Origin: Escherichia coli
GTDB lineage: Bacteria; Pseudomonadota; Gammaproteobacteria; Enterobacterales; Enterobacteriaceae
NCBI RefSeq assembly: GCF_002854065.1
Contig: NZ_CP024147.1
DNA length: 64,000 nt
Strand: one strand, 5' to 3'
A program made the position numbers. Below are positions 16,001-18,717 of the stretch, one piece after another. Each line of letters starts with the position of its first letter. Position 1 is the stretch's first letter.

Positions 16001-18717
16001 TGGCGATGGGCGCGACAGTAAAGGCCATACACCGGCTGGCGGTGAAAATCCTTTAACGCCAGCGGCGTCAGGCGAAAGCCTTGTTCACCCCGCAAAATAT
16101 GCTGAGCGCGGGGAACCTGATCGGCGGGAATAAACGCCACGGACTCTTGCGGTGCAAGCGTAACCTGCAACGGCCCGTTGTCCGTCGCCAGCCAGAAGGA
16201 GACCTCTGTTCCTTGCGGGGTATCCCGCCAGTGTCGGGTTAAGATAAAACCTGCCTGCGCCACGCTGAAAATCCATCAAAAAACCAGGCTTGATTATAGC
16301 CTGGTTTCATTTGATTGGCTGTGGTTTTATACAGTCATTACTGCCCGTAATATGCCTTCGCGCCATGCTTACGCAGATAGTGTTTATCCAGCAGCGTTTG
16401 CTGCATATCCGGTAACTGCGGCGCTAACTGACGGCAGAATATCCCCATATAAGCGACCTCTTCCAGCACGATGGCGTTATGCACCGCATCTTCGGCATTT
16501 TTGCCCCATGCAAATGGGCCGTGAGAATGGACCAGGACGCCGGGCATTTGCGCTGCATCGATACCCTGTTTTTCGAAGGTTTCTACGATGACGTTACCGG
16601 TTTCCCACTCATATTCGCCGTTGATTTCTGCGTCGGTCATTTTGCGGGTGCAGGGAATGGTGCCGTAGAAATAGTCGGCGTGGGTGGTGCCGGTAGCTGG
16701 AATCGACTGACCCGCCTGCGCCCAGATGGTGGCGTGGCGCGAGTGCGTGTGCACAATGCCGCCAATGGACGGGAATGCCTGATAGAGCAGCCGGTGAGTT
16801 GGCGTATCGGAGGAGGGCTTTTTCGCACCTTCAACCACTTCACCGGTTTCGATGCTGACCACGACCATATCGTCAGCGGTCATGATGCTGTAATCGACGC
16901 CGGAAGGTTTGATCACAAAGACGCCGCGCTCGCGATCAACGGCGCTGACGTTGCCCCATGTGAGCGTGACCAGGTTGTGTTTTGGCAGCGCCAGGTTGGC
17001 TTCTAATACCTGGCGTTTGAGATCTTCTAACATGTTGACTCCTGAGAGGTCGTTTCCCCTCACCCCGGCCCTCTCCCCGAAGGGGCGAGGGGGAAAACAA
17101 TGCCGGATGCGCTTTGCTTATTCCGCCTACAAAATCACAGCGTGTAGGCCTGATAAGACGCGTCAGCGTCGCATCAGGCGTTACATACCTGATGCGGCTA
17201 CTTAGCGACGAAATCCGTAATACACTTCGTTCCAGCGCAGTGCGTCTTTAAACGCTGGCAGGCGGGTGTCGTTATCAATCACCGTGATTTCAATGTCGTG
17301 CATCTCGGCGAACTGGCGCATATCGTTGAGGTTCAGCGCATGGCTGAAGACGGTGTGGTGCGCACCACCAGCAAGGATCCACGCTTCGGAAGCAGTTGGC
17401 AGATCCGGTTGCGCTTTCCACAGCGCATTCGCCACCGGCAGTTTCGGCAGGGAGTGCGGTGTTTTCACCGTGTCGATGCAGTTAACCAGTAGACGGTAAC
17501 GATCGCCGAGATCAATCAAGCTGGCGACAATCGCTGGGCCGGTTTGGGTATTGAAGATCAGGCGGGCAGGATCGTCCTTACCACCAATACCGAGATGCTG
17601 AACGTCGAGGATCGGTTTCTCTTCTGCGGCGATCGACGGGCAGACTTCCAGCATATGGGAGCCGAGCACCAGGTCATTGCCTTTCTCGAAGTGATAGGTG
17701 TAGTCCTCCATAAAGGAGGTGCCGCCCTGCAGACCGGTTGACATCACCTTCATGATGCGAAGCAGGGCGGCAGTTTTCCAGTCGCCTTCGCCCGCAAAGC
17801 CGTAACCCTGCTGCATCAGACGCTGTACGGCCAGACCAGGAAGCTGTTTCAGACCGTGCAAATCTTCAAAGGTGGTGGTGAACGCGTGGAAGCCACCTTG
17901 TTCCAGGAAACGTTTCATCCCCAGCTCAATACGCGCCGCTTCCAGCACGTTCTGTCGTTTTTCGCCGTGGATTTGTGTGGCAGGCGTCATGGTGTAGCAG
18001 CTTTCGTACTCATCGACCAGCGCGTTAACATCGCCGTCGCTGATGGAGTTCACCACCTGCACCAGATCGCCAACCGCCCAGGTATTGACGGAGAAACCGA
18101 ACTTGATTTGTGCGGCAACTTTATCGCCATCGGTGACCGCCACTTCACGCATGTTATCGCCAAAACGGCAGACTTTCAGATGACGGGTATCCTGTTTAGA
18201 GACCGCCTGACGCATCCAGGAGCCGATACGCTCATGGGCTTGTTTATCCTGCCAGTGACCGGTAACGACGGCATGTTGCTGACGCATACGCGCGCCAATG
18301 AAGCCGAACTCGCGACCGCCGTGCGCGGTCTGGTTCAGGTTCATAAAGTCCATATCGATACTGTCCCACGGCAGCGCCGCGTTAAACTGGGTGTGGAATT
18401 GCAGCAACGGTTTGTTGAGCATGGTCAGGCCGTTGATCCACATTTTGGCCGGGGAGAAGGTGTGCAGCCACACCACCAGACCAGCGCAACGATCGTCGTA
18501 ATTCGCGTCGCGGCAAATAGCGGTGATTTCATCCGGCGTGGTGCCCAGCGGTTTCAACACCAGTTTGCAGGGCAGTTTCGCTTCCGTATTTAGCGCATTA
18601 ACAACGTGCTCGGCATGTTGGGTGACCTGACGCAGGGTTTCCGGGCCATACAGATGCTGGCTGCCAATGACAAACCACACTTCATAATTATCAAAAATCG
18701 TCATTATCGTGTCCTTA

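What the first reader, a model, noticed from the sequence alone, without database searches (positions are those of the whole stretch)
16274..16340. Compact araD 3' end / LexA box / terminator hairpin / polB start arrangement
Within about 75 bp on the minus strand: the araD stop (16338-16340), a consensus LexA box (16319-16334), a strong hairpin plus U-run (16274-16308) and the polB GTG start (16263). The hairpin that looks like the araBAD terminator therefore lies between the polB SOS operator and the polB start codon, i.e. inside the polB 5' region. polB transcripts must either initiate downstream of it or read through it.
Basis: inference. Interest (0 to 1): 0.25.

Follow-up and report, generated by a model that had tools for sequence, protein, structure and literature searches.

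The report
polB promoter inside araBAD terminator hairpin
In the 74-bp gap between the arabinose gene araD and the SOS-controlled DNA polymerase II gene polB of E. coli, the LexA operator, the araBAD terminator hairpin and the polB promoter overlap, with the promoter's -10 box in the hairpin loop; polB transcripts therefore most likely start inside the hairpin's second arm and never form the terminator, which makes this a compact but ordinary arrangement at a well-studied locus.

Summary
On the minus strand there are the araD stop (16340-16338), a CTGT-N8-ACAG LexA box (16334-16319), an 11-bp stem-loop followed by six T (16308-16278; -16.1 kcal/mol, z = -6.0) and the polB GTG (16263).

It lies exactly 20 bp downstream of the LexA box in all 79 Enterobacteriaceae sequences compared (78 fetched loci plus the window), so the box covers the -35 position. 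The predicted polB start (about 16285) falls in the descending arm, so polB mRNA lacks the 5' arm and cannot terminate at this hairpin. A UV tiling-array study places the 5' edge of the induced polB transcript at about 16289.

The box, -10 and 5' arm stay with polB wherever araD lies. The 3' arm is kept in 55 of 56 species with araD within 320 bp, but in only 8 of 23 where other DNA intervenes. It is lost in Salmonella, where polB is still SOS-inducible.

The hairpin is therefore best read as the araBAD (upstream-gene) terminator that insulates polB. It is not a polB leader attenuator. No single-nucleotide start-site or 3'-end data could be retrieved. The locus is already known and of low interest.

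The parts
16338..17033 (-). araD coding sequence (L-ribulose-5-phosphate 4-epimerase), last gene of araBAD; stop codon TAA at 16340-16338
   Evidence: ORF list, annotation of identical or near-identical E. coli genomes, and K-12 MG1655 annotation with an offset of 49517.
16317..16336 (.). LexA (SOS) operator. The 16-bp core CTGTATAAAACCACAG is at 16334-16319 and begins 3 nt after the araD stop. It covers the -35 position of the polB promoter.
   Evidence: Sequence and pattern search. CTG and CAG are invariant in all 79 sequences compared. The same sequence is listed as the polB LexA motif in PMC3009722.
16316..16321 (-). -35-position hexamer CAGCCA (3 of 6 matches to TTGACA), 17 bp upstream of the -10; its first three bases are the CAG of the LexA box
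   Evidence: Spacing counted. The scan tool, which needs at least 4 of 6 matches, does not call it. This part is inferred.
16298..16308 (-). 5' arm of the hairpin (GAAACCAGGCT), which is also the spacer and upstream edge of the -10 of the polB promoter
   Evidence: Fold results. The core AACCAGGC has 0.018 substitutions per site where araD is adjacent and 0.071 where it is remote.
16293..16298 (-). -10 hexamer TATAAT (TATACT in K-12), in the hairpin loop
   Evidence: The hexamer is TATA[A/C]T in all 79 sequences compared, always 20 bp after the LexA box and 29-34 nt before the start codon.
16280..16290 (-). 3' arm of the hairpin (AGCCTGGTTTT); it contains the predicted polB transcription start (best guess G16285, plausible range 16284-16289)
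   Evidence: Fold. The start is predicted from -10 spacing (inference). The tiling-array transcript edge is at about 16289. The arm is kept in 55 of 56 araD-adjacent species and decays elsewhere (0.304 substitutions per site).
16278..16283 (-). T6 run: the U-tract of the araBAD intrinsic terminator (predicted araBAD 3' end about 16276-16280) and also the first bases of the polB leader
   Evidence: Sequence. The role is inferred from the standard anatomy of intrinsic terminators.
16261..16285 (-). Predicted polB leader of about 22 nt (GGUUUUUUGAUGGAUUUUCAGC) and the GTG start codon at 16263-16261. There is a weak Shine-Dalgarno-like GGA at 16274-16272 and no unusual structure.
   Evidence: Folding the leader gives z = -0.16.
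13912..16263 (-). polB (DNA polymerase II) coding sequence, 783 codons, GTG start
   Evidence: ORF list and annotation.

Best explanation
The 74-bp araD-polB gap holds two overlapping transcription signals on one strand.

(1) The polB promoter-operator. A LexA box sits on the weak -35 position, there is a 17-bp spacer, and a strong -10 (TATAAT here, TATACT in K-12) follows. Transcription is predicted to start about 7-9 nt later, at G16285. LexA bound at the box blocks RNA polymerase, and LexA cleavage during SOS frees the promoter.

(2) The intrinsic terminator of the upstream araBAD operon. Its 5' arm is the promoter spacer, its loop is the -10 hexamer, its 3' arm is the start-site region and its U-tract is the start of the polB leader.

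RNA made from PBAD contains both arms, folds and is released at the U-tract, so the strongly arabinose-induced operon does not run into polB. RNA started at the polB promoter lacks the 5' arm, cannot form the hairpin and continues into polB. The hairpin therefore insulates polB from upstream transcription and does not attenuate polB.

Shown here: the sequence anatomy, fold stability, invariant spacing, and conservation of the 3' arm that depends on what lies upstream. Inferred: the exact start site, the araBAD 3' end and the insulating effect in vivo.
For: Anatomy and stability of the hairpin: (-16.1 kcal/mol, z = -6.0).

The -10 lies in the loop at an invariant 20-bp distance from the LexA box in all 79 sequences compared. 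Only one base of the hexamer varies (A/C).

The box, 5' arm and -10 stay 71-80 nt from the polB start whether araD is 74 bp or 1500 bp away.

The 3' arm has 0.022 substitutions per site in 56 species with araD within 320 bp, against 0.304 in 23 species where it is remote. The unconstrained spacer next to it has only about 0.5 majority-base identity in both groups. The canonical hairpin is kept in 55 of 56 against 8 of 23 (Fisher p = 1.3e-9, not corrected for phylogeny).

The single adjacent-class loss (L013) and the Pseudocitrobacter loci, among others, have a separate terminator directly after araD.

The hairpin is retained where another co-directional ORF abuts the LexA box with no other terminator between it and the box (L022, L018, L011) or none nearer than about 390 nt (L044, L071).

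Salmonella has a divergent DUF4751 gene upstream. There the equivalent segment folds at only -3.2 kcal/mol, yet polB remains an SOS gene (PMC8072944).

One-sided changes in retained stems are mostly G.U-compatible on the minus-strand RNA (7 G.U cells), and there is one A-U to G-C compensatory change in L081.

The UV-induced polB transcript edge lies 46 nt after the start of the LexA motif, at about window 16289 (PMC3009722 Table 7). The 0-based offset was checked against Table 4 of the same paper. Array resolution is about 7 nt.

The predicted polB leader has no significant structure.
Against: No single-nucleotide start site for polB and no 3'-end map for araBAD could be retrieved. The primary papers are not held. 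The held part of the Cappable-seq GFF shows only + strand entries.

The consensus promoter scan calls no promoter here because the -35 matches only 3 of 6.

The stem is nearly invariant, so covariation statistics do not support it beyond shuffles. Support rests on conditional conservation.

The association with upstream context is imperfect. Pseudocitrobacter, Phytobacter, Kosakonia and Superficieibacter have a co-directional ORF abutting or overlapping the box but have lost the hairpin. Citrobacter L007 and L010 keep it behind a divergent gene.

The 5' arm remains conserved even without its partner, for reasons not established.

The tiling-array boundary is low resolution.
Confidence: 0.8

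Rival explanations
1. Leader attenuator. polB transcription starts upstream of the hairpin, for example from the TATAAA inside the LexA box. The hairpin plus U-run then terminates most transcripts in the 5' leader, adding a second control layer. This would resemble the attenuator reported for uvrD or the frd terminator in the ampC leader (both recalled from memory).
For: The hairpin lies between the operator and the start codon. The LexA box contains the -10-like TATAAA (5 of 6). Hairpin and U-run are conserved in most species.
Against: No -35 or other conserved promoter element lies upstream of the box. That DNA is araD coding sequence in some species and unrelated sequence in others, and the scan finds no promoter. 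The loop TATAAT is invariant at a fixed spacing from the box. The 3' arm is lost in at least five lineages, including Salmonella, where polB is still SOS-regulated. The tiling-array transcript edge lies 3' of the loop, not upstream of the hairpin.
Confidence: 0.07
2. The inverted repeat AACCAGGC-N9-GCCTGGTT is a DNA operator for an unidentified dimeric regulator that overlaps the polB -10. It would not be an RNA element.
For: Both arms are conserved in sequence with almost no compensatory change. This pattern is expected for a protein-binding palindrome. The 5' arm stays conserved even where the 3' arm is gone.
Against: Loss of the 3' arm tracks loss of an adjacent co-directional upstream gene, which a polB regulator site would not be expected to do. 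A run of T always follows the 3' arm in hairpin-bearing species. Most one-sided changes keep G.U pairing on the minus-strand RNA only, and there is one compensatory A-U to G-C change. No such regulator of polB is known to me.
Confidence: 0.04
3. The hairpin is a terminator, but the overlap also acts as a regulatory coupling. Heavy araBAD transcription through the LexA operator and into the polB -10/+1 region would change polB expression. It could do so by evicting LexA, by occluding the promoter with terminating polymerases, or by residual read-through. Arabinose status would then modulate Pol II levels.
For: The araD stop is 0-3 nt from the LexA box, and the terminator release site lies on the polB start region, so physical interference is unavoidable in principle. 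From memory, unverified because the paper is not held: an AraC regulon RNA-seq study (Stringer et al. 2014) may have reported polB as arabinose-responsive.
Against: Nothing in the sequence requires it. The strong conservation of an efficient-looking terminator argues for insulation rather than coupling. No data were retrieved.
Confidence: 0.09

Closest known systems
The araD-polB (dinA) intergenic region of E. coli K-12 MG1655 (65781-65854)
   Same: It is the same locus, with the same genes, LexA box, hairpin and GTG start. 72 of 74 intergenic bases are identical. polB/dinA is an established LexA-regulated gene (Bonner 1990 and Iwasaki 1990, as cited in PMC2680738).
   Different: The window has TATAAT where K-12 has TATACT in the hairpin loop, and T for C at one spacer base. 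The window's 91-bp version is identical to O157:H7 PV15-279, and 394 of 5379 E. coli genomes match it at 99% or more.
Intrinsic (Rho-independent) terminators of E. coli operons
   Same: An 11-bp stem with 5-6 G-C pairs, a 7-nt loop and a U6 tract, starting 30 nt after the stop codon of the last gene of an operon.
   Different: The loop and both arms are also the core promoter and start site of the next gene. Most terminators do not carry a conserved -10 hexamer in the loop.
frdABCD terminator / ampC attenuator overlap in E. coli (Grundstrom and Jaurin 1982; recalled from memory)
   Same: In a compact same-strand junction, the terminator of one operon lies within the control region of the next gene.
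   Different: As I recall it, the ampC promoter lies upstream of the terminator, so the hairpin sits in the ampC leader and attenuates it. Here the promoter's -10 is inside the loop and the start is predicted in the 3' arm, so the downstream transcript escapes the hairpin.
uvrD: LexA-controlled promoter followed by a leader attenuator (Easton and Kushner 1983; recalled from memory)
   Different: It requires a start site upstream of the hairpin. The polB evidence points the other way.
SOS promoters with the LexA box over the -35 region
   Same: There is a single CTG-N10-CAG operator. The core box spans predicted positions -48 to -33 and overlaps the -35 hexamer.
   Different: The box is a moderate match to consensus (13 of 20 by my count). 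A more consensus-like variant (TACTGTACAAAATATCAGTA) replaces it in strains and species with an insertion upstream.

Membership tests
LexA (SOS) operator, gamma-proteobacterial type | Palindromic CTG-N10-CAG (CTGT-N8-ACAG) with an A/T-rich centre | tested here: met
   CTGTATAAAACCACAG at 16334-16319. CTG and CAG are invariant in all 79 sequences compared.
LexA (SOS) operator, gamma-proteobacterial type | Positioned so that bound LexA overlaps core promoter elements | tested here: met
   The box ends exactly 20 bp before the conserved -10 in all sequences compared, so it covers the -35 position. This depends on the -10 assignment, which is inferred.
LexA (SOS) operator, gamma-proteobacterial type | LexA binding and DNA-damage induction of the downstream gene | not testable with these tools
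   Literature only. polB is UV-induced, with this motif listed (PMC3009722). polB/dinA is LexA-regulated (PMC2680738). It is SOS-regulated in Salmonella (PMC8072944).
Intrinsic (Rho-independent) terminator | Stable G+C-rich stem-loop immediately followed by a U-tract on the transcribed strand | tested here: met
   The stem-loop folds at -16.1 kcal/mol (z = -6.0) and is followed by UUUUUUGA. The scan tool lists it only for the + strand because of its stem and tail rule.
Intrinsic (Rho-independent) terminator | Lies downstream of a co-directional transcription unit and is maintained because of it | tested here: met
   It starts 30 nt after the araD stop. The 3' arm is kept in 55 of 56 species with araD within 320 bp and in 8 of 23 otherwise. 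It decays where araD has its own terminator or the upstream gene is divergent. There are exceptions (Pseudocitrobacter and the Phytobacter group).
Intrinsic (Rho-independent) terminator | Mapped RNA 3' end in the U-tract, or measured termination efficiency | not testable with these tools
   The one E. coli 3'-end data set whose supplementary files could be searched has no araD entry.
Sigma-70 / sigma-S promoter | -10 hexamer close to TATAAT | tested here: met
   TATAAT (6 of 6) at 16298-16293. It is TATA[A/C]T in all 79 sequences compared.
Sigma-70 / sigma-S promoter | -35 hexamer close to TTGACA at 16-18 bp | tested here: not met
   CAGCCA matches 3 of 6, and the scan returns 0 promoter-like sites. 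Weak -35 elements are usual where an operator occupies that position (established knowledge).
Sigma-70 / sigma-S promoter | Transcription start 6-9 nt downstream of the -10 | tested here: inconclusive
   Only a tiling-array edge at about 16289 is available, 4 nt after the hexamer, with about 7 nt resolution. No single-nucleotide data were retrievable.
5'-leader transcription attenuator (uvrD / ampC type) | Promoter and start site upstream of the terminator hairpin, so that the gene's own transcript contains the whole hairpin | tested here: not met
   There is no conserved promoter upstream of the box. The conserved -10 is inside the loop. The transcript edge lies 3' of the loop. The hairpin is dispensable in Salmonella. 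The test is indirect, with no nucleotide-level start site.

The most novel reading that the evidence does not exclude
The complete overlap is a coupling device as well as an economy of space. The LexA operator abuts the araD stop codon, and the araBAD release site lies on the polB start site. Transcription from the fully induced araBAD operon would repeatedly sweep LexA off the polB operator and then terminate on the polB -10/+1. Arabinose growth would thereby change basal or SOS-induced Pol II expression through derepression, promoter occlusion or leak-through. In addition, the terminator U-tract doubles as the U-rich start of the polB leader, and it could influence initiation (slippage at GGUUUUUU) or translation of a GUG-start mRNA with a weak Shine-Dalgarno sequence.
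Probability: 0.12. Interest if true: 0.45.

Novelty: already known. Interest (0 to 1): 0.15.

Why it matters
If the reading is right, the locus is a clear example of how bacteria fit a terminator and the next promoter into the same 30 bp. The terminator hairpin is assembled from the promoter spacer, the -10 and the start region, so only upstream transcripts can fold it. That keeps an SOS-controlled polymerase insulated from one of the most strongly inducible operons in the cell.

The comparison across 78 fetched loci plus the window adds a natural experiment. The 3' arm decays when araD is no longer the immediate neighbour, while the operator and -10 persist. This separates the terminator function from the promoter function without any wet-lab work.

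It does not open a new question. polB/dinA regulation by LexA and the araBAD operon have both been studied since the 1980s and 1990s.

Tried and rejected
**Literature.**
- The primary papers on the polB promoter and araBAD terminator are not held: Iwasaki 1990, Bonner 1990, Dapa 2017, Stringer 2014, Thomason 2015.
- Text searches for polB, araD, terminator, promoter or 'polBp' gave only strain genotypes and primers.

**Supplementary start-site and 3'-end tables.**
- The Adams 2021 files have no araD entry and only a polB-internal entry at 63552, not a start site or an araBAD 3' end.
- SMRT-Cappable-seq, ROSE, Rend-seq annotation and the Term-seq 2022 paper have no usable files or no polB/araD entries.
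- The Cappable-seq GFF is stored truncated, and the retrieved rows are all + strand, so the minus-strand polB start could not be read.
- The tiling-array supplement has no polB row.

**Computational checks.**
- The consensus promoter scan found nothing, because its -35 rule is too strict for an operator-covered promoter.
- Covariation test of the stem: uninformative, because the stem is almost invariant.
- Rfam scan of 15900-16800: no family.

**Ideas rejected.**
- The hairpin travels with araD. Rejected because the module stays at a fixed distance from polB.
- The whole palindrome is needed for polB expression. Rejected because the 3' arm is lost in Salmonella and others.

**Not attempted.**
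- polB upstream regions outside Enterobacteriaceae were not examined. The single genome scan returned only the 80 closest relatives.
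Full report
**1. What is in the sequence**

Read on the minus strand, the region runs as follows:
- ...GGGCAG TAA (araD stop, 16340-16338)
- TGA
- CTGTATAAAACCACAG (16334-16319)
- CCAATCAAAT
- GAAACCAGGCT (16308-16298)
- ATAATCA (16297-16291)
- AGCCTGGTTTT (16290-16280)
- TTGATGGATTTTCAGC
- GTG (polB start, 16263-16261)

The ORF list gives polB as 13912-16263 (783 codons, GTG start) and an ORF ending at 16338 for araD. Megablast against complete E. coli genomes finds the segment in 5400 of 5426 genomes, annotated araD and polB. The K-12 MG1655 record has the same layout (araD 65855-66550, polB 63429-65780). Window coordinate equals the K-12 coordinate minus 49517. The 74-bp gap differs from K-12 at two bases. 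Every coordinate in the finding is correct.

**2. Is it more than chance**

- The hairpin alone folds at -16.1 kcal/mol, against -4.4 +/- 1.9 for dinucleotide shuffles (z = -6.0, 0 of 200 as good).
- The 82-nt gap gives z = -4.0.
- CTGT-N8-ACAG occurs three times in the window against 0.7 expected. The other two copies are G+C-rich in the middle.
- The terminator scan lists the hairpin on the + strand only. This is an artefact of its rule. On the minus strand the 10-pair stem it counts uses up three of the six T. With a 7-8 bp stem the tail is TTTTTTGA.
- No Rfam family matches.

**3.

The loop and the last base of the 5' arm spell TATAAT (16298-16293), a perfect -10 hexamer. K-12 has TATACT. 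Seventeen bp upstream lies CAGCCA (3 of 6 matches to TTGACA), whose CAG is the end of the LexA box. The box therefore covers the -35 position.

Counting 7-9 nt from the hexamer puts the start at T16286, G16285 or G16284. G16285, preceded by a pyrimidine, is the best guess (inference from standard promoter geometry). Such a transcript begins GGUUUUUUGAUGG... It carries no 5' arm, and its leader has no unusual structure (z = -0.16).

The consensus promoter scan reports nothing here, because it needs at least 4 of 6 matches in the -35.

**4. Comparative evidence**

One scan of GTDB species genomes with the PolB N-terminus returned 80 loci from Enterobacteriaceae. Both araD and polB could be placed in 78 of them. 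Together with the window these make the 79 sequences compared.

- The LexA box lies 71-80 nt from the polB start in all of them, whether the araD stop is 74 bp or 1503 bp away. The module therefore belongs to polB, not to araD.
- The gap between the end of the box and the start of the -10 is 20 bp in essentially every sequence (21 bp in two).
- The hexamer is TATA[A/C]T everywhere, and CTG and CAG are invariant.
- The -10 ends 29-34 nt before the start codon.

**5. A natural experiment separates the two functions**

The sequences split into 56 with araD within 320 bp and 23 where other DNA intervenes.

| Measure | araD within 320 bp (n = 56) | araD remote (n = 23) |
|---|---|---|
| 5' arm core AACCAGGC, substitutions per site | 0.018 | 0.071 |
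| 3' arm GCCTGGTT, substitutions per site | 0.022 | 0.304 |
| Majority-base identity of the adjacent spacer | about 0.5 | about 0.5 |
| Canonical hairpin kept (-11 kcal/mol or better) | 55 of 56 | 8 of 23 |

Fisher's exact test on the last row gives p = 1.3e-9. It is not corrected for shared ancestry. By genus there are at least five or six separate losses.

The context explains most cases.
- The one 'adjacent' loss (L013) has a new terminator 27 nt after araD.
- Pseudocitrobacter has a 13-bp terminator directly after araD.
- Salmonella and the Citrobacter freundii group carry a DUF4751 gene on the opposite strand, so nothing co-directional reads into polB. Their 3' arms are gone or decaying (-3 to -11 kcal/mol).
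- The hairpin is retained where another co-directional ORF ends 76-81 nt before the polB start (L022, L018, L044, L071, L011). No other terminator was found upstream of the box in L022, L018 and L011, and none nearer than about 390 nt in L044 and L071.

There are exceptions. Pseudocitrobacter, Phytobacter, Kosakonia and Superficieibacter have a co-directional ORF abutting or even running through the LexA box, yet have no hairpin. Citrobacter L007 and L010 keep the hairpin without a co-directional neighbour.

Salmonella polB, which lacks the hairpin, is still an SOS-induced gene (PMC8072944). The 3' arm is therefore not needed for LexA-controlled expression.

**6. RNA-level or DNA-level selection**

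The stem is almost invariant, so formal covariation measures do not exceed shuffles. I do not claim covariation support.

Among the 448 core-stem cells of the araD-adjacent class, 432 are Watson-Crick, 7 are G.U and 9 are mismatches. Four of the mismatches are alignment gaps in the T-run and three come from L013. L081 has an A-U to G-C compensatory change. The G.U cells would be A.C mismatches on the other strand. This fits selection on the minus-strand (araD-sense) RNA.

**7. Experimental evidence that could be reached**

- polB/dinA is LexA-regulated, with about 50 molecules per cell and roughly sevenfold induction (PMC2680738, citing Bonner 1988/1990, Iwasaki 1990 and Qiu & Goodman 1997).
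- Cloned SOS promoter fragments, described as spanning the whole intergenic region, include polB, and its reporter shows UV dose-dependent activity (PMC5999292).
- In a UV tiling-array study (PMC3009722), the LexA motif ACTGTATAAAACCACAGC starts at offset 54 of the 100 nt upstream of the detected induced polB transcript (Table 7). Table 4 of the same paper shows that offsets are 0-based: offset 25 of the 100 nt upstream of the start codon matches A16338. The transcript edge is therefore at about window 16289 (K-12 65806). That is 4 nt after the -10 and inside the 3' arm. Intergenic probe resolution is about 7 nt. This agrees with a start in the 3' arm and argues against a start upstream of the hairpin, but it is not nucleotide-level proof.
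- RpoS is reported to be needed for full polB expression (Dapa 2017, as cited in PMC6590174). From memory, the K-12 sequence GCTATACT fits the sigma-S-type -10, with C at -13 and C at -8.

**8. Mechanism**

Transcripts from PBAD carry both arms, fold and are released in the U-tract, at a predicted 16276-16280. Transcripts from the polB promoter start within the 3' arm and cannot fold the hairpin. LexA on the box blocks the -35 region. The hairpin thus protects the SOS logic of polB from a very strongly inducible upstream operon, while costing no extra DNA.

None is conserved there, and that DNA is araD coding sequence or unrelated sequence depending on the species.

**9. Comparison with known systems, and novelty**

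This is the K-12 araD-polB junction with two SNPs, at a locus sequenced and studied since 1990. I could not retrieve the original promoter papers to confirm that the position of the -10 in the loop was explicitly described. Even so, every component is a standard kind: a LexA operator over the -35, an intrinsic terminator and a GTG-start gene.

It resembles the frd terminator/ampC attenuator overlap and the uvrD leader attenuator (both from memory) in compactness. It differs in that the downstream transcript is predicted to escape the hairpin.

The conditional decay of the 3' arm across genera is, as far as I could check, a small new observation rather than a new kind of system. Verdict: already known, low interest (0.15).

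**10. Limits**

- No nucleotide-resolution 5' or 3' ends were available.
- The comparison is confined to Enterobacteriaceae.
- The association statistics are not phylogenetically corrected.
- The continued conservation of the 5' arm without its partner is unexplained.

Noticed in passing
window 16293-16298 (base 16294): The -10 hexamer in the loop is polymorphic at one base. The window has TATAAT; its 91-bp version is identical to O157:H7 PV15-279, and 394 of 5379 E. coli genomes match it at 99% or more. K-12 has TATACT, and 4671 of the 5379 genomes fall in the 95-99% identity band, as K-12's version would (2 mismatches); their -10 base was not checked. The same A/C toggle recurs across many genera, and no other hexamer position varies. 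From memory, GCTATACT fits the sigma-S-type -10, in line with reported RpoS control of polB.
   Followed up: partly
L083 (E. coli SCU-301, NZ_CP051751.1) 67-1545: This E. coli strain has about 1.4 kb with three opposite-strand hypothetical genes inserted between araD and polB. It also has a different, more consensus-like LexA box (TACTGTACAAAATATCAGTA). The hairpin is intact. Similarity to the window begins in the spacer between the box and the 5' arm. E. coli is therefore polymorphic for the arrangement seen in Salmonella and Citrobacter.
   Followed up: partly
L054, L050, L039, L041 (about 40-110 nt upstream of the polB start): REP/BIME-like palindromes (GCCGGATAAG...CATCCGGC) are inserted between the araD stop and the LexA box in Lelliottia, Enterobacter and Pseudenterobacter. 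Insertions are never seen between the box and the hairpin.
   Followed up: no
L038 148-777, L074 711-1334, L025 791-1420 (coordinates within the araD-polB gap): A co-directional DUF218-family ORF appears to run through the LexA box and the -10 and to stop only 43-50 nt before the polB start. The polB operator-promoter would then lie inside a coding sequence, and no hairpin is present.
   Followed up: partly
window 16299-16306 and the matching columns 39-46 of alignment A2: The 5' arm AACCAGGC stays conserved (0.071 substitutions per site) in species that have lost the 3' arm (0.304), while the spacer just upstream is saturated. Something other than hairpin formation constrains it, possibly promoter spacer or extended -10 contacts. 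This is unexplained.
   Followed up: partly
window 16300-16304 and 16284-16288: Both hairpin arms are Dcm methylation sites (CCAGG and CCTGG). The predicted polB start, G16285, lies in the second one.
   Followed up: no
window 22574-22589 and 25781-25796: Two further CTGT-N8-ACAG matches (CTGTAATTCCCAACAG and CTGTGCACAGCAACAG). Their centres are not A/T-rich, so they are probably chance matches.
   Followed up: no
window 16338-17063: The mechanical ORF for araD starts at a GTG 30 nt upstream of the annotated start (241 against 231 codons). This is an artefact of the first-start rule and not a real extension.
   Followed up: no
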